Positions 3,495 through 49,009 of a stretch of 53,042 nt of DNA are shown piece by piece. A program made the translations under genes and the position numbers. Under the pieces are notes generated by a model. The model had not been told where the DNA came from. It made no database searches and saw only the letters and a list, made by a program, of their open reading frames with translations. Each line of letters starts with the position of its first letter. Position 1 is the first letter of the stretch. The DNA comes from Escherichia phage BEC1-17: the sequence record MN158218, one strand, 5' to 3'.

Positions 3495-3863
3495 GTGAGT
3501 AACCAACCGTCTATGTCGTTAGTGTACCAGGCACCAGCTAAGACTGGTGAGTTTGCAGGTACTATCCACGTAATTCATGCGGAAGAAATCATCAGCATTG
3601 CATTCGTGGAAAAAACAAAGAAAGAAAAAGCTTTACGCGTCACCACTAAAAGTGGTATAATAGACGTAACGGATATTGCTGCGGGCCAAGCCCTACGTAC
3701 AATGTTCAATAACTATTGCTTACTGATCGGTGCAACTATGCACATGCAACCTGAGGAAACAACTGATGGCACTGACCCCACAAGAACTGGAATCGATGGA
3801 CACGGAACAGCTGTACGACAAGCTGGCGAATCTGAACCGCTGGATGTCACAAGCGAAAGCTGA
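3495..3863 (+). CDS. hypothetical protein (GTG start)
   Basis: GTG start 8 nt after AGGAG; 3' end overlaps next gene by ~98 nt, so the C-terminal extent is uncertain. Confidence 0.35.
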   Translation: MSNQPSMSLVYQAPAKTGEFAGTIHVIHAEEIISIAFVEKTKKEKALRVTTKSGIIDVTDIAAGQALRTMFNNYCLLIGATMHMQPEETTDGTDPTRTGIDGHGTAVRQAGESEPLDVTSES

Positions 3864-4206
3864 CCAGGAAACATTGCGCCGGACCATTAAAGCACGTCTT
3901 GAACGTGACATGATTATCAATCGTGGTAAAGAAGGTACACAAACGGTTGAGTTCAGCATGCATGGCGTACCTGGTAAACTCAAGGTTGAGCAGAAGGTTA
4001 ACCGCTCACTGGACCAGAAGCTTGTGCCTGACGTAATGAAGAAGTTACCGAAGACTGTTGTTGCCAAGCTGTTTAAAACCAAGTATGAAATGTCAGTTAC
4101 TGCATACCGTAACCTGACACCAGAACAACTGGCTATCGTCGACCCTGTTGTGAAGACTTCACCAGGTATTCCGACTGTAACATTCACACCGGCGGATACG
4201 GAATAA
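3766..4206 (+). CDS. hypothetical protein
   Basis: ATG at 3766 preceded by GAGGA; charged 146-aa product. Confidence 0.5.
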   Translation: MALTPQELESMDTEQLYDKLANLNRWMSQAKADQETLRRTIKARLERDMIINRGKEGTQTVEFSMHGVPGKLKVEQKVNRSLDQKLVPDVMKKLPKTVVAKLFKTKYEMSVTAYRNLTPEQLAIVDPVVKTSPGIPTVTFTPADTE

Positions 4207-4221
4207 GCCGAGTAATTAAAC

Positions 4222-4249
4222 GGGGCTTAGCACAAGCCCCCTGACTTTT
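4222..4249 (+). terminator. intrinsic terminator-like hairpin GGGGCTT-AGCAC-AAGCCCC followed by CTGACTTTTG
   Basis: GC-rich stem plus T-tract immediately after the stop of 3766..4206. Confidence 0.5.
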
Positions 4250-4259
4250 GGAGACTTAC

Positions 4260-4559
4260 ATGGCATCAGATAACAGCAAGAAGTATAATGTTGAAGACCG
4301 TTACCGTCACCACCTCGGCATTCTCAAGTCAATTATGCGTACTGCAGGAATGGATGAGATGGAACCTCTTTGCAATATCCTTCCTCGCGTACGCCATATG
4401 GTACAGGATAATGTTGTGTTGAATAAAGCTATTGAGCAGGCACAACTCGAAGGTGTTGCATTTATTCGTGTAACCCACAAAAAGGATGGCCCTAGCCTGG
4501 AAGTGGTTAACAGCCGTAACGTGGTAGTCAAACGTGAAGATAGCTCATCTGATTCTTGA
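4260..4559 (+). CDS. hypothetical protein
   Basis: ATG 4260 preceded by GGAG; track ORF start 4248 is a TTG four codons upstream. Confidence 0.45.
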   Translation: MASDNSKKYNVEDRYRHHLGILKSIMRTAGMDEMEPLCNILPRVRHMVQDNVVLNKAIEQAQLEGVAFIRVTHKKDGPSLEVVNSRNVVVKREDSSSDS

Positions 4560-4627: not shown

Positions 4628-4918
4628 ATGGGCAATAAGCAGATGCATGTTATGTTTATGGGCAATCCTGGTCCGCGTGACAAATGGCTATTTGACAAGT
4701 TCAAAGAAAGCCTGATAGGCAAAGAGCTGGTTATTGACTTTACTCCTGTTGAGAAAAGAGCGGCTGAAGTCTTTCGCAATATCAACCATGACTTAATCGT
4801 GATTGACGAGATTGTGGATAAGCCAACAAAGAAAGAAGTCGGTACATATGCGGCTATGTTTGGCGTACCAAAGAAAACATATACTCCGCTACACAAACGT
4901 AAAGGTAAACGTAAATGA
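4628..4918 (+). CDS. hypothetical protein
   Basis: 96-aa ORF in co-directional gene array. Confidence 0.4.
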   Translation: MGNKQMHVMFMGNPGPRDKWLFDKFKESLIGKELVIDFTPVEKRAAEVFRNINHDLIVIDEIVDKPTKKEVGTYAAMFGVPKKTYTPLHKRKGKRK

Positions 4919-10015: not shown

Positions 10016-11686
10016 ATGGCTTTTGAAGCTCGTTGGTACCAGGTTGAAGCGGTCACAGCTTGGTGGTCGTACTTCAATTCTTATAGTGGTAATCCACTTA
10101 TTGTCATGCCGACAGGTTCAGGTAAATCGCCTGTGCTTGGTATGTTGATGAAGGATATTCTTACCAGCTATCCCCGTCAGCGCATTCTTATATTGACACA
10201 CGTCAAGGAGCTGGTAGAACAAGACGCCAAAGCGATTGTACGCCACTGGCCACAAGCACCAGTATCAATATACTCTTCAGGTGTAGGACACAAAGACTTT
10301 TCAGGCCGTATCGTTGTAGCGTCAGTGCAGTCGATTATTAAGAACCTGGAAGAAGCAGGTAAGTTCAATCTTATATTCATTGACGAAGCCCATCTCGTTC
10401 CTGAGAAGTCTGAAACAACATACCGTAAGGTTATTGCTCATTTCAAAGAGCTTAATCCTAAGGTAAAAGTAACAGGACTTACAGCAACTCCGTATCGCCT
10501 GGCAGGTGGTCACTTACTTGACTGTGGTATATTTACCGACATCTGCTATGACCTTACAACACCTGACGCATTTACCAGACTGGTAAATGAAGGCTTCCTG
10601 TCACGCCTAGTCAACAAGAAAGTGTTAACCAAGATTGACACCAGTAATGTTGGTGAAAGGATGGGTGACTACATCCCGTCAGAGCTTGAGAAGGTAGCCA
10701 ACCAACATAGTATAACAGTCGCGGCTATTCGTGAGATGATGCACTACGGTAAAGACAGGAACCACGTTCTTGTATTTGCCACAAGTGTTGAGCACGCCCA
10801 CAACATAGCAGACGAGTTTAATCTGCGAGGTTGGCAGACTGTAGTTGTGCATGGCGGTCTTACAAAGAAAGAACGTGAAGCCGCACTGGAAGAGTTTACA
10901 AGCGGACGAGCACGGGTCTGTGTAAACGTAAACGTATTGACGACAGGATTTGACTATCCTGAGATTGATATGCTCGGCATCTTGCGCCCGTCCACGTCTG
11001 TTGCTTTGTGGGTGCAGATACTCGGTCGAGGATTACGTACAGCACCTGGTAAGCATGACTGTCTTGTCATGGACTTTACGTCTAACACCATTGACCTTGG
11101 ACCTATTGACGACCCGGCTGTTCCGCCACGTCTTGGTAAGAAGAAAAAGAAACGGTCAGAGAAAACACCTGGCGGTAAAGAGTGTCCTATCTGCCACCAG
11201 GTAAGCGGCTATGCTGCTCGTACGTGTAAGCATCCGGCTAAAGGAAGTACGCCAGACGAGAATGGAGTATATCCGATGTGCGGGCATGAGTTTGAGTTTA
11301 CAGTTAACGGACCTGCTATTGCCTTCACTTCATCAGAAGAAGAGGTAATGACTAACGGTCAGCTTCGTGTTGTGGATAAAGATGTTACGCTGGTAAACTA
11401 TTCTTTATTCCAGAAGCAGGGACGACCTGACAGTATAAAGGTTGTGTACTACTCAAACCTGGAAGTGTATACAACATGGGTAAATATAGAGGCCCATGGT
11501 AATGCTAAGCAAATGGCAGACGCCTGGTGGCGTAATGCTGCAGGAACAGAACCGCCTGAAACATGCGATGAGTTTATTCGCCGTAAGGGTGAGCTGGCTA
11601 TTCCTAAGCGCATCAAGGTATGGATTAAACGACCCTACCCACAAATCATGAACTACGACTGGGGAAATGGCTATGGCGCTCGATGA
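10016..11686 (+). CDS. SF2 DEAH-box DNA helicase with C-terminal zinc-ribbon
   Basis: Walker A PTGSGKS, DEAH box FIDEAH, TATP motif III, CPICHQ...CKHP Cys pairs. Confidence 0.8.
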   Translation: MAFEARWYQVEAVTAWWSYFNSYSGNPLIVMPTGSGKSPVLGMLMKDILTSYPRQRILILTHVKELVEQDAKAIVRHWPQAPVSIYSSGVGHKDFSGRIVVASVQSIIKNLEEAGKFNLIFIDEAHLVPEKSETTYRKVIAHFKELNPKVKVTGLTATPYRLAGGHLLDCGIFTDICYDLTTPDAFTRLVNEGFLSRLVNKKVLTKIDTSNVGERMGDYIPSELEKVANQHSITVAAIREMMHYGKDRNHVLVFATSVEHAHNIADEFNLRGWQTVVVHGGLTKKEREAALEEFTSGRARVCVNVNVLTTGFDYPEIDMLGILRPSTSVALWVQILGRGLRTAPGKHDCLVMDFTSNTIDLGPIDDPAVPPRLGKKKKKRSEKTPGGKECPICHQVSGYAARTCKHPAKGSTPDENGVYPMCGHEFEFTVNGPAIAFTSSEEEVMTNGQLRVVDKDVTLVNYSLFQKQGRPDSIKVVYYSNLEVYTTWVNIEAHGNAKQMADAWWRNAAGTEPPETCDEFIRRKGELAIPKRIKVWIKRPYPQIMNYDWGNGYGAR

Positions 11687-11921: not shown

Positions 11922-11953
11922 GTGTTTACACACTCTTTTAAATGACGTATATT
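11922..11953 (+). promoter_or_regulatory. sigma70-like promoter (TTTACA-N17-TATATT)
   Basis: GGTGTTTACA at 11921-11930; -10-like TATATT 11948-11953. Confidence 0.45.
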
Positions 11954-12001
11954 AACTCACGTAACGAACAAACATTAAGCCCTGTAGACGAGGAAAAAAT
12001 T

Positions 12002-12469
12002 ATGAGCGAGAAACTGACTTTTGTAACTGGTAAAGAAGAAGTTAACGGCGTACTGTATCCAGCAGCTGGTACTGGCGCGCGTTACGTATGGGACCTGGCT
12101 GATAAAGCCCATGAAGAAGGCAAGTCCAGCTCTGACGTTATGGACGAAGTTGTTGCCACTACCGAAATGTCCCGTGGTACTGTTTCTTCCCAGCTGACCT
12201 ACTGGCGTAAAGCCACTGGTAAAGTTCTGGCTAAGCGTGTTGATACCGCTAAAGCAGAACGCGATGCTGCTAAAGCCGCTGAAAAACAGCGTAAAGCTGA
12301 AGAGCGTGCTCGCATCAAAGCTGAAAAAGCCGAAGCGAAAGCTGCTGAGCAGATTCGCAAAGCTGAAGAGAAAGCTGAAAAAGCTCGCCAGAAAGCAGAA
12401 GCTGCTAAAGCTGAAGCTGCTAAACTGGCTGGCGCGATCGAAGGCGACAACGAAGAAGTTGCTGAATAA
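12002..12469 (+). CDS. Ala/Lys/Glu-rich protein (histone-H1-like low-complexity C-terminus)
   Basis: ATG 12002 after GAGG; C-terminal ~70 aa made of KAAEK/AEKA-type repeats. Confidence 0.5.
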   Translation: MSEKLTFVTGKEEVNGVLYPAAGTGARYVWDLADKAHEEGKSSSDVMDEVVATTEMSRGTVSSQLTYWRKATGKVLAKRVDTAKAERDAAKAAEKQRKAEERARIKAEKAEAKAAEQIRKAEEKAEKARQKAEAAKAEAAKLAGAIEGDNEEVAE

Positions 12470-12485
12470 TAGCGCTGATCTGAAC

Positions 12486-12503
12486 GCACCTCTACGGAGG
12501 TGC
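12486..12503 (+). terminator. hairpin GCACCTC-TACG-GAGGTGC after 12002..12469
   Basis: 7-bp perfect stem 17 nt after stop; weak T-tract. Confidence 0.3.
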
Positions 12504-12720
12504 ATTCAATGGACATCCTTACATCTCTCTTCTTATCAACAATCAATTAAGCCTGGTGTGTTGAAACAGTGAGGGTGTCCAGTGAATGCAGTTCAATTCT
12601 GCTCGCTGACCGAGATTTGGTAAAAGCCGTGATGTGTGAGGTTCGATTCCTCCGACGCTGAAAAGGGTATTGGCTCGCTACCTTGACCCCAGGCGCCTGG
12701 TGTAGACGGCGGTCACAATT

Positions 12721-12807
12721 TTAGTTGTGGTGTTTTGGCGTATCTTTTTGACACCCGTCGGGTGCAGGTTATCCACAATAACTCAGGTGCTAAGACACCA
12801 CAACTAA
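12721..12807. repeat. 13-bp perfect inverted repeat TTAGTTGTGGTGT / ACACCACAACTAA (arms 12721-12733 and 12795-12807), ~61-nt spacer
   Basis: read directly; spacer contains palindrome CACCCG-T-CGGGTG. Confidence 0.8.
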
Positions 12808-12814
12808 GGTTGTA

Positions 12815-12893
12815 CTTGCTGTGTGCTTTTGCCACTCCATCGGTGTGATAAGTGCAACGCTCTATACTTTCCGCGGTGAGAGCACACAGCAAG
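12815..12893. repeat. 13-bp perfect inverted repeat CTTGCTGTGTGCT / AGCACACAGCAAG (arms 12815-12827 and 12881-12893), ~53-nt spacer
   Basis: read directly; extendable to ~15 bp. Confidence 0.8.
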
Positions 12894-13087
12894 TAACGCA
12901 TATGTGATTGGCTACTCGATGACACCTCCTTTTCGTCTCGTCGCGGGGATTAAAATGGTAAATCTTTTGGCCAATCTCATATGCGCTGCCTGGTTGCATA
13001 GTTACGATGCCTTGTATCTCCTTACGCCACCCTGCCAAAAGGACCAGTTAACGCTGGTCCTTTTTATTTTTACCAGAAGCGTAAAAA

Positions 13088-13120
13088 GTGCTTTACCACT
13101 AGAGAGTGATGTGGTATAAT
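13088..13120 (+). promoter_or_regulatory. sigma70-like promoter (TTTACC-N17-TATAAT with TGG extended -10)
   Basis: AAGTGCTTTACC at 13086-13097; TATAAT 13115-13120; 26 nt upstream of the ATG at 13147. Confidence 0.55.
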
Positions 13121-13146
13121 AAGTTATCTTTTAGAGGAGAGATACA

Positions 13147-13545
13147 ATGAACCTACAACGTGTTGCTGAAGCTTATTACAGGATTTGGATACTTCGGCTA
13201 GAGGGCCAAATCGACTACGTGAACACCGTCGGCCGCGAAGATTACTTGCCTGCATCTTCTTTCCAGGAAGTATGCAACATTGCTCAAACTCTTGAACATG
13301 AATTTGATAAGGTCAAGTTTACACGCGATGTGCAAACAAACTTTATCAAGTTTGAAACAACCATGCGCTGTAAATTCCCGTTTATCAAGCGCATATCCCG
13401 TACCGGCCTTTTCATTGTTCCCTTTCCTGTGGGTAAAGAACGTTGGGACACTTTAGAACAGGCTCGTCATATTATCTGGTCTACAGAAATTAAACGTAAG
13501 TTTATCGAAACTGTTTGTAAGGAGTTACGAAATGCGATTCAGTAA
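13147..13545 (+). CDS. hypothetical protein
   Basis: ATG 13147 preceded by AGAGGAGAG. Confidence 0.5.
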   Translation: MNLQRVAEAYYRIWILRLEGQIDYVNTVGREDYLPASSFQEVCNIAQTLEHEFDKVKFTRDVQTNFIKFETTMRCKFPFIKRISRTGLFIVPFPVGKERWDTLEQARHIIWSTEIKRKFIETVCKELRNAIQ

Positions 13546-47561: not shown

Positions 47562-48039
47562 CTAAAAAGCCCCCAGTAGTGTCAGTCAAAAGCGAGTTCA
47601 TAACGTCTTGTGGCAGTATCACAGGATGGTTACCTGTTTCGATTTTTGGCTTATGTTTTGGCGCTTTTTTGCGCTCCAGGTACTCATCATGGGCCTTACA
47701 AATGGCATTTACGATGAAATCATGCTGATATGCGTACCATTCATCGTTTTCTGGGTCGTATTTAAGGCCAACATAGTTCATCAGCGATGACATTACGTGA
47801 ATGCCTTCGTGGGAAATGGTGTTGTACTTCAGGTCGTCCGGGTGGTACAGTTCGACGACTATTAGCAGGTACGGATAATTAACGCGAGAGAACGTAAAAG
47901 TAGATGCATTACGCGTTTCCCGGTCATTCCAGTTGCCAAAATCAGGCAAATCCATCAGTTTTTGGAGCTCTTCGTGCTCTTTTTCGCTGCAAACGACAGC
48001 CAATTGAGGCGGATATGGCTCTAATTGAACAATTTTCAT
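47554..48039 (-). CDS. putative HExxH zinc metallopeptidase-like protein
   Basis: HEGIH motif in ~161-aa protein; start uncertain (GTG 48051 or ATG 48039). Confidence 0.35.
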   Translation of the reverse strand: MKIVQLEPYPPQLAVVCSEKEHEELQKLMDLPDFGNWNDRETRNASTFTFSRVNYPYLLIVVELYHPDDLKYNTISHEGIHVMSSLMNYVGLKYDPENDEWYAYQHDFIVNAICKAHDEYLERKKAPKHKPKIETGNHPVILPQDVMNSLLTDTTGGFLGD

Positions 48040-48269
48040 AATGTTACCCACAAGTAGGAGACCGTGAGGCCGTTTGATGATTCACATTAATGATAGCGCG
48101 TGGATGAGAGAAAGTACACCACTTTTTAGTGAGTGTCTACACAGTTCCCGAAAAATATAAAAATTTTTAGAGGGGCTTCACTTATTATTGTGTTAAGCAA
48201 AAGGTTAGCTCCTGTCGTATCAATCTGATGATGATTGGTACTGATAAGGAGAAAATAGAGAAAAAATAA

Positions 48270-48346
48270 AAAATTTTGCTGGCTCCTGGCAGGTAGCACC
48301 CTTGCGAAATTACCCCCCGCCGCACCTATTTCGATTGAAATGATTA
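48270..48346 (+). repeat. direct repeat copy R1 (~77 bp)
   Basis: shares GC(C/T)GGCTCCT ... GCACCC ... CCCCCGCCG ... GATTGA ... ATTAC blocks with R2. Confidence 0.7.
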
Positions 48347-48445
48347 CTCTGGTAACTATTGTGATTGATACAATTACCGTGTGAACTACTTCGGCCGTTA
48401 TAACACAAAGCGTCTATAATTCAGATTGAAATTATATTTTTATAA

Positions 48446-48522
48446 ATAATTTCGCCGGCTCCTTTAAGTGGCACCCCTACGTTACTATAACCCCCGCCGA
48501 CCATTTTGGATTGAGTAATTAC
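48446..48522 (+). repeat. direct repeat copy R2 (~77 bp)
   Basis: about 70 percent identical to R1, same orientation, 176 bp downstream. Confidence 0.7.
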
Positions 48523-48859
48523 ATGCGAAACTATATCAATTGCATACGAGAACCACTCTCAATCGCAAGTGATTATCATTTCTAAAAACTTGCATAAACT
48601 TGCAATTCTTTTATGTACAACATTGATTGACTGGCCTATAATTATTACATCAAGACGAATGATGAATGTGTCAAGCGTCTTGTCCGGCGCGCGTCGTCAA
48701 GATGCGCAAATAATAACTTTACCTGGTCGAATAGTACCAGACCGCTCTTTAACAATTTGGTAACATGTTTCTTGTTGATAGTAACGCTGGTAATAGTTTC
48801 AACTAGTGGCTATTGGAAGCAGTAGCCACGCCTGGAAACTAATAGCAGGAGTAACTATT

Positions 48860-49009
48860 ATGAAAGACAACTACACGCTTTGGTATGATTGTAATGAAGG
48901 GCTATGGTGTGTCAACATTAATAATGGACCAGTCCCAGACTTTGAATCAATGGACGTGGAAGATTGTGTTGATTTCATCCAGTCGCAAGTAGTCAAATAT
49001 CAAGGGTAA
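48860..49009 (+). CDS. hypothetical small protein
   Basis: ATG 48860 after AGGAG. Confidence 0.35.
   Translation: MKDNYTLWYDCNEGLWCVNINNGPVPDFESMDVEDCVDFIQSQVVKYQG

What the first reader, a model, noticed from the sequence alone, without database searches (positions are those of the whole stretch)
12470..13146. ~0.67-kb noncoding structured region in the middle of the replication module: two long perfect inverted repeats plus tRNA-like T-arm motifs
This is the largest noncoding stretch inside the plus-strand block. It contains two perfect 13-bp inverted repeats with ~50-60-nt spacers (12721-12807 and 12815-12893) and an internal palindrome CACCCG-T-CGGGTG (12751-12763). The only ORFs here (12713..12925 minus, 12904..13119 plus) run through the repeats and are probably spurious. 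Position between helicase/primase-type genes and nucleotide-metabolism genes would suit a replication origin or a structured RNA locus.
Basis: seen in the sequence. Interest (0 to 1): 0.5.

Follow-up and report, generated by a model that had tools for sequence, protein, structure and literature searches.

The report
Phage tRNA-mimic RNA and hairpin cluster
This gene-free stretch of a Salmonella/E. coli phage is not a replication origin but a string of folded RNAs, one of which is a tRNA look-alike lacking the amino-acid and anticodon arms; the same look-alike sits unannotated in the tRNA gene clusters of many unrelated phages.

Summary
Window 12470-13146 (a Rosemountvirus, 99.8% identical to Escherichia phage CF2) is non-coding and highly structured on the + strand. 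It lies between a gene stop (12469) and an intrinsic terminator (13037-13074), followed by a sigma-70-type promoter (13092-13120).

It holds four long hairpins, not two: A 12504-12587, B 12715-12813, C 12813-12895, D 12890-12992.

The main result is that the two "T-arm motifs" belong to one 135-nt tRNA-like RNA (12582-12719). It has a canonical T arm, a 4-nt linker where the acceptor stem would be, a class-II-type D arm, and an inserted domain carrying a second T arm. It has no acceptor stem and no anticodon stem.

A covariance model built only from unrelated viral contigs finds it at 69.6 bits (E about 1e-13). Across 37 distinct copies, 95% of pair cells are paired and 13 of 17 pairs show compensatory changes. 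Where tRNA genes lie near a copy (14 contigs), they are always on the same strand. The family includes Cellulophaga and Rhizobium phages, is annotated nowhere, and matches no Rfam family.

Sister phages carry tRNA-Pro and tRNA-Gln in the same slot. An origin reading is poorly supported, and the small ORFs are spurious. The RNA's function is unknown and is inferred to be tRNA-elbow mimicry.

The parts
11925..11953 (+). Sigma-70-type promoter (TTTACA-17-TATATT) of the transcription unit that runs into the non-coding region. It lies outside the finding's coordinates.
   Evidence: Consensus scan. A promoter is annotated at the same place in BP63. Its use is inferred, not shown.
12002..12469 (+). 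Upstream gene: a 155-aa Lys/Ala/Glu-rich protein, PHROG 28664, function unknown. The structured region is its 3' trailer.
   Evidence: BP63 gp59 annotation mapped onto the window. PHROG match at 6e-99, no Pfam match. The gene is syntenic in every lineage examined.
12486..12503 (+). Small hairpin h0 (GCACCTC-TACG-GAGGTGC) just after the stop codon. No T-run follows it, so it is not an intrinsic terminator.
   Evidence: I6; -12.7 kcal/mol. It is conserved in all lineages, with covarying forms GCCCCTC/GAGGGGC in SOI901 and GTCCCT/AGGGGC in L016.
12504..12587 (+). Long hairpin A: a stem of about 19-22 bp containing U.G pairs. It directly abuts h0 on one side and the tRNA-like RNA on the other. Candidate RNase III processing site.
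   Evidence: (I2). In 10 sequences from 6 lineages, 6 of 13 stem pairs show compensatory change, and U.G pairs are conserved on the + strand. In SOI901 and L016 the same hairpin sits directly upstream of tRNA-Pro.
12582..12719 (+). tRNA-core-mimic RNA, made of these segments:
- T arm T1, 12588-12602
- linker UCGC, 12603-12606
- P1 5' strand UGACC, 12607-12611
- D-loop-like bulge GAGAUUUGGUAAAA, 12612-12625
- P2 5' strand GCCGU, 12626-12630
- second T arm T2, 12638-12652
- hairpin H3, 12665-12689, with loop AUUGGCUCGCUACCUUG
- P2 3' strand ACGGC, 12706-12710
- P1 3' strand GGUCA, 12711-12715
   Evidence: Model R1, built from 10 unrelated IMG/VR contigs, matches here at 69.6 bits, E about 1e-13, over its full length. 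It is the only match in the window. Covariation was counted on 37 distinct copies, and a manual count agrees. ARAGORN and Rfam find nothing here.
12715..12813 (+). Long hairpin B: a 25-bp stem (21 Watson-Crick + 4 G.U). Its conserved apex holds the sub-hairpin CACCC-GUC-GGGUG (12752-12764), GUUAU-CCACA-AUAAC, and a TTATCCACA 9-mer (12769-12777).
   Evidence: (I1). In 7 sequences, 8 of 36 pairs show compensatory change; the stem sequence differs in the KE25 group while the apex is conserved. In the KE25 group B lies upstream of the tRNA-like RNA instead of downstream. Its 5' arm is deleted in phage rivia.
12813..12895 (+). Long hairpin C: a 20-bp stem, of which 15 bp are perfect, with a conserved apex (GAUAAGUGCAACGCU.UAUACU).
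   Evidence: I4; -39.1 kcal/mol on the + strand, -32.9 on the - strand. Present in Rosemountvirus and Loughboroughvirus.
12890..12992 (+). Long hairpin D: arms 12890-12912 / 12970-12992, with an apex containing CACCUCCUU. Found only in Rosemountvirus.
   Evidence: (I3). Absent from Loughboroughvirus, the KE25 group, L017, SOI901 and L016.
13009..13024 (+). C/U-rich single-stranded stretch (CCUUGUAUCUCCUUAC) about 15 nt upstream of the terminator. A CUCCUUG-like motif sits at this place in most lineages.
   Evidence: A test for specific pairing with the downstream gene's start region gave nothing special.
13037..13074 (+). Intrinsic terminator: a 12-bp stem (AAAAGGACCAG / CTGGTCCTTTT) followed by TTTTTATTTTT. 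This is the 3' end of the non-coding transcript.
   Evidence: (I7). Conserved in all lineages, with a covarying stem (CCTG...CAGG in KE25, SOI901 and L016).
13092..13120 (+). Sigma-70-type promoter (TTTACC-17-TG-TATAAT) for the downstream operon, which starts with the ATG at 13147. It is not part of the RNA locus but lies inside the finding's coordinates.
   Evidence: The sequence GCTTTAC...TAGAGAGTG...TATAAT is conserved out to SOI901. Annotated as a promoter in BP63.

Best explanation
The region is the untranslated trailer of a short transcription unit, roughly 11960 to 13074 on the + strand. It acts as a "stable-RNA slot": a chain of independently folding RNA modules in the order h0, hairpin A, a 135-nt tRNA-core mimic, hairpins B, C and D, a C/U-rich tail, and the terminator.

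The mimic keeps the parts of a tRNA that build its elbow and core:
- a canonical T arm (G53-C61 closing pair, loop UUCRANY);
- U8, A14, G15, G18-G19 and A21 of a class-II-type D region;
- a D-stem-like helix, P1.

The acceptor stem is replaced by the 4-nt linker UCGC, and there is no anticodon stem. After the A21 position a helix (P2) is inserted, which usually carries a second T arm.

The same RNA occurs in many unrelated phages. Wherever tRNA genes lie nearby it is on their strand, and in several contigs it lies within or directly beside a tRNA array. In two sister phages of this lineage the slot holds tRNA-Pro and tRNA-Gln instead.

What is shown: the structure, the covariation, the family distribution, the strand, the synteny with tRNA genes, and the transcription signals as sequence features.

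What is inferred: the trailer is co-transcribed with the upstream gene. The 20-25-bp hairpins flanking the mimic are cut by host RNase III, as happens at the T4 tRNA precursor, T7 early RNA and rRNA operons (from my own knowledge). That would release a stable RNA of about 130 nt. Its T loops would be modified by TrmA and TruB. It would act by occupying or recruiting a host factor that reads the tRNA elbow or core, such as RNase P, tRNA-modifying or repair enzymes, or a tRNA-directed defence nuclease. The identity of that partner is unknown.
For: Strand and structure:
- Fold z = -9.0 on the + strand against -6.2 on the - strand.
- Hairpins A-D together hold 10 G.T against 2 A.C mismatches; every hairpin is more stable on the + strand.
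- Compensatory changes occur in hairpin A (6 of 13 pairs) and hairpin B (8 of 36 pairs).

Transcription frame: a promoter lies upstream of the gene, no terminator follows the stop codon, and a strong terminator sits at 13037-13074.

Synteny: Erwinia phage SOI901 and metagenomic contig L016 have tRNA-Pro(UGG) and tRNA-Gln(UUG) between hairpin A and another long hairpin, in the same slot.

The tRNA-like family:
- The core motif occurs in about 40 IMG/VR stretches, plus Cellulophaga and Rhizobium phages.
- Model R1, built without any sequence of this lineage, hits window 12582-12719 at 69.6 bits.
- On 37 distinct copies, 95.1% of cells are paired, 13 of 17 pairs show compensatory change, and there are 102 double-change cells. 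No shuffle out of 500 reaches this, and slid controls pair at 35-57%.
- A manual count gives 9 distinct T1 stems (102/102 paired), 14 P2 helices (80/85) and 11 T2 stems (68/68).
- P1 covaries further in the third scan.
- The G-C pair closing each T loop is invariant: 37/37 for T1 and 34/34 for T2.
- In all 14 contigs with tRNA genes nearby, the element is on the tRNAs' strand, often within a few nt of a tRNA end.

Not coding: frameshifting indels among close relatives.
Against: - No expression data exist; promoter, terminator and processing are read from sequence alone.
- Phage rivia carries a natural 144-bp deletion (12622-12766) that removes most of the mimic and half of hairpin B. The RNA is therefore dispensable for growth on the isolation host.
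- Two family members (L020, L045) lack the second T arm, and some lack a clear P2, so only T1, the linker, the D region and P1 are universal.
- The copies were collected with sequence patterns that fix parts of the core, and alignment A9 is fitted to the model; both inflate apparent conservation. The covarying stems lay outside the fixed letters in at least one scan each.
- E-values come from a shortened calibration.
- Nothing identifies the binding partner.
- Nothing here explains hairpins C and D.
Confidence: 0.75

Rival explanations
1. Processing signals only. The hairpins and the tRNA-like fold serve in cis as punctuation and 3'-end protection for the upstream mRNA, or for neighbouring tRNAs in other phages. 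They would give RNase III, RNase P or RNase E defined cutting sites and block 3' exonucleases, and the released tRNA-like RNA would have no role of its own.
For: - The element always lies between other RNA units, at the ends or inside of tRNA arrays, and is often followed by a T-run.
- In this lineage it sits in an mRNA trailer between long hairpins.
- It is dispensable in phage rivia.
Against: - About 25 nt of single-stranded or bulge sequence (UCGCUGRCCGAGAUU.GGUAAA) is conserved across phages of three bacterial classes. An elaborate inserted domain with a second T arm is also kept. Both are more than a cleavage signal needs.
- tRNAs in arrays are processed without such a helper.
- The element lacks the acceptor stem, which is the main RNase P determinant (established knowledge; see also PMC4201824).
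Confidence: 0.2
2. Decaying tRNA genes. The T-arm motifs are remnants of the tRNA-Pro and tRNA-Gln genes still intact in SOI901 and L016, drifting without function, and the hairpins are neutral leftovers.
For: - Real tRNA-Pro and tRNA-Gln occupy the same slot in two sister phages.
- T1 (GCAG-TTCAATT-CTGC) resembles the SOI901 tRNA-Pro T arm (GCAGG-TTCGAAT-CCTGC).
- The rivia deletion is tolerated.
Against: - The same architecture, with the same linker and D-like bulge, is found in unrelated phages next to intact tRNAs of other identities (Cys, Phe, Gln, Ala, Arg, Met). It is therefore a gene type of its own, not a local wreck.
- Its stems are kept by compensatory changes.
- A model built from foreign copies recognises it end to end.
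Confidence: 0.05
3. DNA-level element: a replication origin, or a single-strand initiation or protein-binding site. The hairpins would extrude as cruciforms or fold in single-stranded DNA, and host DnaA would bind the TTATCCACA box in the apex of hairpin B.
For: - A perfect DnaA-box 9-mer at 12769-12777, plus TTATCAACA at 12533-12541 in the apex of hairpin A.
- The B apex, including the box, is conserved in three lineages while the stem changes.
- The region lies inside the replication-gene block.
- G.T asymmetry would also fit a fold in single-stranded + strand DNA.
Against: - GC is 0.45-0.54, with no AT-rich unwinding stretch, no iterons, and no GC-skew turn at 12.5-13 kb. The skew turns at about 3, 18.5 and 48 kb instead.
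- DnaA-box-like matches are not clearly enriched in the genome (20 observed against 12.8 +/- 3.3 expected; 2 of 100 shuffles reach 20).
- Hairpin B is missing from L017, SOI901 and L016, moves relative to the tRNA-like RNA in the KE25 group, and is half deleted in rivia.
- The slot holds tRNA genes in sister phages and is bracketed by transcription signals.
Confidence: 0.06
4. Small proteins. The ORFs at 12713-12925 (- strand) and 12904-13119 (+ strand), or the small ORFs that other annotators called here, encode real micro-proteins.
For: ORFs of 70 and 71 codons exist. Several GenBank records annotate different small "hypothetical proteins" in this region.
Against: - Relatives more than 95% identical carry 1- and 2-nt indels inside both ORFs.
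- The annotated ORFs differ in position, strand and frame between records.
- The hairpin D segment that holds much of both ORFs is absent from Loughboroughvirus.
- Both ORFs start with GTG and run through the hairpin stems.
Confidence: 0.02

Closest known systems
YrlA-type bacterial Y RNAs (tRNA-mimicking partners of Rsr/Ro60; Chen et al. 2014, PMC4201824)
   Same: Both are non-coding RNAs that reproduce the tRNA T arm and D region with the conserved tertiary-contact nucleotides. In both, the T arm comes before the D region, so the RNA ends emerge where the anticodon stem would be. Both plausibly arose from the junction of two adjacent tRNAs. YrlA is also found in some phages.
   Different: - YrlA has an acceptor-like stem-loop between T and D; here that is reduced to the 4-nt linker UCGC.
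- YrlA carries a GNCGAAN0-1G motif and a long terminal stem for Rsr; neither is present here.
- YrlA genes lie within about 4 kb of an rsr gene. No TROVE/Ro60 product is named in the RefSeq annotation of BP63, though many of its products are only "hypothetical protein", and no TROVE domain search was run on the window or the other contigs.
- This RNA has a helix inserted in the D loop, usually with a second T arm.
- There is no Rfam match of any kind at E <= 10.
Phage T4 species 1 and 2 RNAs (rnaC, rnaD)
   Same: Both are small stable RNAs of unknown function encoded at the end of a phage tRNA cluster, on the tRNA strand, with tRNA-like pieces; rnaC ends in a canonical T arm. They are the classical precedent for non-tRNA genes inside a phage tRNA array.
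   Different: There is no sequence or model similarity. R1 finds nothing in the T4 region at E <= 1. The architecture also differs: rnaC has its T arm at the 3' end next to an acceptor-like end, whereas here the T arm is 5'-terminal and there is no acceptor stem. rnaD shows only a weak echo, GGGTCGCTACCGGTAAG.
Phage tRNA genes and tRNA arrays
   Same: The genomic niche and strand are the same, and the same slot in sister phages holds tRNA-Pro and tRNA-Gln. The T arm is canonical and the D-loop nucleotides are retained.
   Different: There is no acceptor stem, CCA end, anticodon arm or anticodon, so the RNA cannot be charged or decode. It is not detected by ARAGORN or by the Rfam tRNA model.
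RNase III processing hairpins (T7 early and late RNA sites, the site upstream of T4 tRNA-Gln, stems flanking rRNA); comparison from my own knowledge
   Same: Hairpins A-D are 19-25-bp, nearly perfect RNA helices placed between functional RNA units in one transcript. This is the size and context RNase III uses.
   Different: Cleavage is untested. The apical parts are large (about 45-55 nt), and in hairpins B and C they are more conserved than the stems, which suggests additional sequence-specific roles. T7 sites are shorter and have characteristic internal loops.
tmRNA tRNA-like domain
   Same: Both combine a T arm with a D-loop-like bulge, without a true D stem or anticodon arm.
   Different: There is no acceptor stem with a G.U pair, no CCA end and no tag reading frame. 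ARAGORN finds no tmRNA. A candidate closing helix with the sequence just after the stop codon is not conserved in L017.

Membership tests
Canonical tRNA | Cloverleaf with a 7-bp acceptor stem and a 3' CCA or discriminator end | tested here: not met
   No 5' partner exists for the strand after T1. The linker is 4 nt and runs straight into the D region. ARAGORN finds 0 genes in the window and calls none at any copy.
Canonical tRNA | Anticodon arm (5-bp stem, 7-nt loop) | tested here: not met
   Absent from the consensus structure. The Rfam tRNA model gives no hit even at E <= 10.
Canonical tRNA | T arm with a G53-C61 pair and a UUCRANY loop, plus D-loop nucleotides A14, G18-G19 and A21 | tested here: met
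   T1 has an invariant G-C closing pair (37/37), loop TTCRANY, and a covarying stem. The D-like bulge is GAGAUU(N)GGUAAA.
YrlA / bacterial Y RNA | Encoded near an rsr (Ro60/TROVE) gene on the same strand | tested here: inconclusive
   No Ro60/TROVE product is named in the RefSeq annotation of BP63, and the ORFs next to other copies start with sequences that look like ordinary phage genes. However, many BP63 products are only "hypothetical protein", the neighbouring ORFs were judged by eye, and no TROVE domain search was run.
YrlA / bacterial Y RNA | GNCGAAN0-1G Rsr-binding motif near the 5' end, within a terminal stem | tested here: not met
   The sequence shows UGRCCGAG instead, and the RNA has no long terminal stem.
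YrlA / bacterial Y RNA | T arm, then an acceptor-like stem-loop, then a D arm | tested here: not met
   The T-before-D order is shared, but the acceptor-like stem-loop is replaced by 4-5 nt (UCGC, UCUU, UCGU or UUCAG).
YrlA / bacterial Y RNA | Binding to Rsr | not testable with these tools
   Needs immunoprecipitation from infected Salmonella.
T4 rnaC / rnaD stable RNAs | Sequence or structure homology to T4 species 1 or 2 RNA | tested here: not met
   R1 finds nothing in T4 68000-75000 at E <= 1.
tmRNA | Acceptor stem, T arm and tag-peptide reading frame | tested here: not met
   ARAGORN finds no tmRNA. No conserved acceptor helix exists.
Bacterial or phage replication origin | AT-rich unwinding element, clustered initiator sites (iterons or DnaA boxes), and a strand-composition switch | tested here: not met
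   GC is 0.45-0.54, there are no direct-repeat families in the non-coding part, there is one perfect DnaA box, and there is no skew turn.
RNase III processing site | About two turns (around 20 bp) of near-perfect double-stranded RNA between functional RNA units | tested here: met
   Stems run 19-25 bp with only G.U irregularities, and they flank the tRNA-like RNA here and the tRNAs in sister phages.
RNase III processing site | Cleavage by RNase III in vivo or in vitro | not testable with these tools
   Needs end mapping in wild-type and rnc hosts.
Intrinsic terminator (13037-13074) | G+C-rich hairpin directly followed by a U-run | tested here: met
   A 12-bp stem followed by TTTTTATTTTT; the stem covaries between lineages.
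New tRNA-core-mimic family (model R1) | T arm, 4-5-nt linker, P1 helix, GAGAUU(N)GGUAAA bulge and P2 helix, scored by a covariance model built from other phages | tested here: met
   Window 12582-12719 scores 69.6 bits, E about 1e-13, over model positions 1-108 of 108.

The most novel reading that the evidence does not exclude
The 135-nt RNA at 12582-12719 would represent a previously undescribed and widespread class of phage non-coding RNA: a minimal tRNA "elbow and core" with no acceptor or anticodon arms, often with two T arms. Phages of at least Gammaproteobacteria, Alphaproteobacteria and Bacteroidota, including contigs of about 410 kb, carry it in their tRNA arrays. It would work in trans as a decoy or adaptor for a host machine that recognises tRNA shape. 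One possibility is that it blunts a tRNA-directed antiviral nuclease or repair sensor, complementing the known use of phage tRNAs against tRNA-depleting defences.
Probability: 0.3. Interest if true: 0.85.

Novelty: new variant of a known kind. Interest (0 to 1): 0.68.

Why it matters
Phage tRNA clusters are now known to counter host defences that cut or deplete tRNAs. Yet the non-tRNA RNAs found in such clusters, such as T4 species 1 and 2 RNAs, have had no assigned function for about fifty years.

This analysis defines a compact tRNA-shaped RNA family with strong covariation support. It is shared by phages of distant hosts, and tRNA finders, Rfam and genome annotators all miss it.

It also offers practical handles:
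- a ready covariance model;
- cultured phages on Salmonella/E. coli, Cellulophaga and Rhizobium;
- a natural deletion mutant (phage rivia);
- sister phages that carry real tRNAs in the same slot.

Together these make the function of tRNA-array "dark" RNAs directly testable. For annotation, Rosemountvirus and Loughboroughvirus genomes, always reported as having no tRNA, do carry a tRNA-derived RNA gene, and the small ORFs called in this region should be removed.

Tried and rejected
1. A tmRNA-like or giant tRNA closed by pairing the sequence just after the stop codon (TCGGCG or TAGCG) with CGCTGA after T1. The register differs between lineages and the 5' segment is missing in L017. ARAGORN finds no tmRNA.

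2. A helix GGTAAAAGCC / GGCTCGCTACC enclosing T2. An apparent compensatory change in KE25 is not sustained in ZCSE2 or L017. The P1/P2 model replaced it.

3. The global minimum-free-energy fold, which pairs 12617-12700 with 12995-13030. The covarying local helices P1 and P2 contradict it.

4. A promoter inside the hairpin B apex (TTGACA ... TATCCA). The spacing is 16 nt here and 19 nt in KE25, and the -10 element is poor.

5. Specific anti-Shine-Dalgarno pairing of the C/U-rich loops with the start region of the downstream gene. Its duplex energy ranks 69th of 82 gene starts.

6. A DnaA-box cluster. Matches are not clearly enriched.

7. Membership in YrlA, the T4 rnaC/rnaD RNAs, or any Rfam family.

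8. A host chromosomal counterpart. None exists in 5,426 E. coli genomes; the only hits are phage genomes deposited as plasmids.

9. Functional clues from flanking proteins. Both are PHROGs of unknown function with no Pfam match.

10. Literature. There is no paper on non-coding RNAs of these phages, and none contains the core sequence.

11. Relatives through the downstream protein. Only one extra lineage each came from the metagenome and IMG/VR scans, and a misbinned copy from the genome scan.
Full report
**Identity and frame.** The window is a Rosemountvirus genome, 99.8% identical over the test kilobase to Escherichia phage CF2 and 99.5% to Salmonella phage BP63. The finding covers the 677 bp between the stop codon of a 155-aa Lys/Ala/Glu-rich protein (12002-12469; BP63 gp59; PHROG of unknown function) and the ATG of a 132-aa protein at 13147. 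No public record annotates an RNA here. Several records place mutually inconsistent small ORFs in the region.

**Checking the observation.**
- The first inverted repeat has a perfect 13-bp core (12721-12733 / 12795-12807) inside a 25-nt arm pair.
- The second is 15 bp perfect (12813-12827 / 12881-12895).
- The palindrome lies at 12752-12764.
- The two T-arm-like motifs lie at 12588-12602 and 12638-12652.

The structure is far beyond chance and is strand-specific. The + strand RNA folds at -241.5 kcal/mol (z = -9.0); the - strand gives -206.7 (z = -6.2). The hairpin stems hold 10 G.T against 2 A.C mismatches, and each hairpin is more stable as + strand RNA.

**Not coding.** Loughboroughvirus lacks the whole hairpin D segment.

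**Relatives and the key synteny.** The locus is conserved in six lineages:
- Rosemountvirus;
- Loughboroughvirus (ZCSE2, SE4, S144);
- the KE25 / fHy-Eco03 / SE1_KM group;
- one IMG/VR contig (L017);
- Erwinia phage SOI901;
- one metagenomic contig (L016).

In SOI901 and L016, the same small hairpin and hairpin A are followed by intact tRNA-Pro(UGG) and tRNA-Gln(UUG). After these come another long hairpin, the same terminator and the same promoter. The slot is therefore a stable-RNA slot read on the + strand.

Hairpins A and B are maintained by compensatory changes: 6 of 13 pairs over 10 sequences for A, and 8 of 36 pairs over 7 sequences for B. U.G pairs on the + strand are conserved. The modules are shuffled between lineages. 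B lies upstream of the T-arm element in the KE25 group, D is unique to Rosemountvirus, and other long hairpins replace C and D elsewhere.

**The T-arm motifs belong to one tRNA-like RNA.** In the lineages without tRNAs, hairpin A (or B) is followed by a conserved unit, built as follows:
- T arm T1;
- linker UCGC;
- UGRCC, the 5' strand of helix P1;
- the bulge GAGAUU(N)GGUAAA;
- the 5' strand of helix P2;
- a second T arm, T2;
- further hairpins;
- the 3' strand of P2, running directly into the 3' strand of P1 (GGYCA).

Within the lineage P2 already covaries: GCCGU/ACGGC, GCCAU/AUGGC, GCCCU/AGGGC, GUUGU/ACAAC. T2 does too, with five different stems.

Searching IMG/VR for the 19-nt junction motif gave 16 stretches. 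Eleven were from contigs unrelated to this lineage, where the unit is a compact 80-135-nt gene, often ending in a T-run. Two further scans were designed to free first the T1 stem, then the linker and P1. They added 24 loci.

A BLAST search of GenBank phages found the unit, unannotated, in two further groups:
- Cellulophaga phages phi13:2 and phi19:3, directly after tRNA-Cys in phi13:2 (the record examined);
- Rhizobium phages RHph_N38 and RHph_I1_6, directly after tRNA-Gln in RHph_N38 (the record examined).

In all 14 contigs with tRNA genes nearby, the element is on the tRNAs' strand. In several it abuts a tRNA end within a few nucleotides. In contigs of about 410 kb it lies inside arrays of 8-21 tRNAs.

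**Formal tests.** A covariance model (R1) was built from 10 copies, none from this phage lineage. It finds exactly one match in the window, 12582-12719 on the + strand, at 69.6 bits, E about 1e-13, covering the whole model. It also finds the copies in all sister lineages. It finds nothing in SOI901, L016 or the T4 tRNA/rnaC/rnaD region.

On the alignment of 37 distinct copies:
- 95.1% of pair cells form standard pairs, against 76.6% in shuffles and 35-57% when partners are slid;
- 13 of 17 pairs show compensatory change, with 102 double-change cells;
- no shuffle out of 500 reaches any of the measures.

A manual, model-independent tabulation agrees: 9 distinct T1 stems, 14 P2 helices and 11 T2 stems, essentially all paired.

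Caveats: the collecting patterns fix parts of the core, the alignment is fitted to the model, and E-values come from a shortened calibration.

**What the RNA looks like.** The conserved letters map onto the tRNA core.
- T1 has the invariant G53-C61 pair and a UUCRANY loop.
- The three nucleotides before T1 (AAU) sit where positions 46-48 would be.
- After the linker comes U8-N-R-C-C-G13-A14-G15 ... G18-G19-U-A21, the D region typical of class II tRNAs (Ser, Leu, Tyr).

In a tRNA, positions 66 and 7 are base-paired neighbours. A 4-nt linker can therefore stand in for the whole acceptor stem without disturbing the core. P1 is a D-stem analogue whose 3' strand is the 3' end of the RNA. P2 is an insertion after A21 and usually carries the second T arm. 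There is no anticodon stem.

The RNA is thus a tRNA elbow and core without either functional end. This mapping is inference from sequence and from textbook tRNA structure.

It is the same permutation class as YrlA Y RNAs (T arm, acceptor-like stem-loop, D arm; PMC4201824). It lacks YrlA's acceptor-like stem-loop and its GNCGAAN0-1G motif. No rsr product is named in the BP63 annotation either, though no TROVE domain search was run.

No Rfam family matches, even at E <= 10. No paper in the library contains the core sequence or describes such an RNA. E. coli chromosomes have no counterpart.

**How it most likely works.**
- Shown: the sequence features of a transcription unit (promoter 11925-11953, no terminator after the stop codon, terminator 13037-13074), the + strand structure, and the family.
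- Inferred: the trailer is co-transcribed with the upstream gene. RNase III cuts the 19-25-bp hairpins that flank the mimic here and flank the tRNAs in sister phages, releasing an RNA of about 130 nt. In tRNA arrays of other phages, the neighbouring tRNAs' own processing would release it. TrmA and TruB, which accept an isolated T arm, would modify both T loops. The RNA would act by mimicking tRNA shape toward a factor that reads the elbow or core.

The partner is unknown. The fact that phages swap this RNA with tRNAs in one slot, and keep it in tRNA arrays, makes a role in the tRNA-centred conflict with the host an attractive but untested idea.

The RNA is dispensable in the laboratory. Phage rivia has a 144-bp deletion (12622-12766) between GGT microhomologies. 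The roles of hairpins B, C and D, whose apices are conserved more strongly than their stems, remain open.

**The origin reading.**
- For: one perfect DnaA-box 9-mer sits in the conserved apex of hairpin B, a one-mismatch copy sits in the apex of A, and the region lies among replication genes.
- Against: there is no AT-rich stretch, no iterons and no skew turn, and box-like matches are not clearly enriched genome-wide. Hairpin B is absent or displaced in other lineages. The slot carries tRNA genes in sister phages.

A better place to look for an origin or control region is the AT-rich, gene-free divergent region at about 47998-48895.

**Verdict.** The origin interpretation is not supported and the structured-RNA interpretation is supported. 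The noteworthy content is a member of an apparently undescribed, widespread phage family of tRNA-core mimics: a new variant within the known kind of tRNA-like non-coding RNAs, whose closest analogues are YrlA and the T4 species 1 and 2 RNAs.

Noticed in passing
window 47998-48895: A second large gene-free stretch (about 0.8-0.9 kb; BP63 3736-4557) lies between divergently transcribed blocks. It sits in the AT-richest part of the genome (GC 0.37-0.42) and near a GC-skew sign change. It is a more plausible origin or control region than the finding.
   Followed up: partly
L014 (Salmonella phage rivia), equivalent to window 12622-12766: A natural 144-bp deletion between GGT microhomologies removes most of the tRNA-like RNA and the 5' arm of hairpin B, while keeping the TTATCCACA 9-mer. 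It is a ready-made mutant for functional tests.
   Followed up: partly
L046 880-998 (- strand) and about 45 nt upstream, compared with L036 and L039: Here the D arm and anticodon arm of a tRNA-Glu(UUC)-like sequence run directly into T1 of the element, so T1 doubles as that pseudo-tRNA's T arm. L036 and L039 carry the identical element with a different upstream sequence. This suggests the element spreads or is rearranged by recombination within T-arm sequences.
   Followed up: no
L050 1498-1597 (Cellulophaga phage phi13:2): A variant with two successive units of the form "T arm + UCG(U/C)U...GAGA(A/U)U" (TCGTTTATTGAGAATTGGTA, then TCGCTAGTCGAGATTAATAGC). It hints that the second T arm of the family arose by internal duplication.
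   Followed up: no
L020 20-155: The Rfam tRNA model matches a 136-nt stretch (37 bits), which would be a tRNA with a large insertion, in the same 76-kb viral contig that carries a minimal 78-nt copy of the element. ARAGORN does not call it.
   Followed up: no
window 12919-12935 and 13009-13024; also 12516-12533: C/U-rich single-stranded stretches resemble the 3' end of 16S rRNA or anti-Shine-Dalgarno sequence (CACCUCCUU in the hairpin D apex, AUCUCCUUAC before the terminator, CUCUCUUCU in the hairpin A apex). A CUCCUUG-like motif precedes the terminator in most lineages. A simple duplex test against the downstream gene's start region showed nothing special.
   Followed up: partly
window 12769-12777 (also 4813-4821 and 11371-11379, - strand): There are three perfect TTATCCACA DnaA-box 9-mers in the window. 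The one in the hairpin B apex is conserved in Rosemountvirus, Loughboroughvirus and the KE25 group.
   Followed up: partly
window 12250-12440: The C-terminal half of the upstream protein is a low-complexity (A/K/E)n repeat, encoded by imperfect GCTGAAAAAGC-type direct repeats. It is annotated as a repeat_region in some records. The protein was found in virions of fHy-Eco03 by mass spectrometry, according to that record's annotation.
   Followed up: no
public records H2 (PP583539.1), L018 (JAEWER010000021.1), H211 and H212: Likely mislabelled records. A "Listeria phage" is 99.8% identical to these enterobacterial phages. A "Bacillota MAG" contig encodes the 132-aa downstream protein at 100% identity and carries the element's core sequence unchanged. 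Two E. coli "plasmids" of about 53 kb appear to be the phage genome.
   Followed up: no
L049 3054-3172, - strand (T4 rnaD): T4 species 2 RNA contains GGGTCGCTACCGGTAAG. This echoes both the UCGCUGRCC...GGUAAA core and the GCUCGCUACC loop of hairpin H3 in the window. Model R1 does not match it, so the resemblance may be chance.
   Followed up: partly
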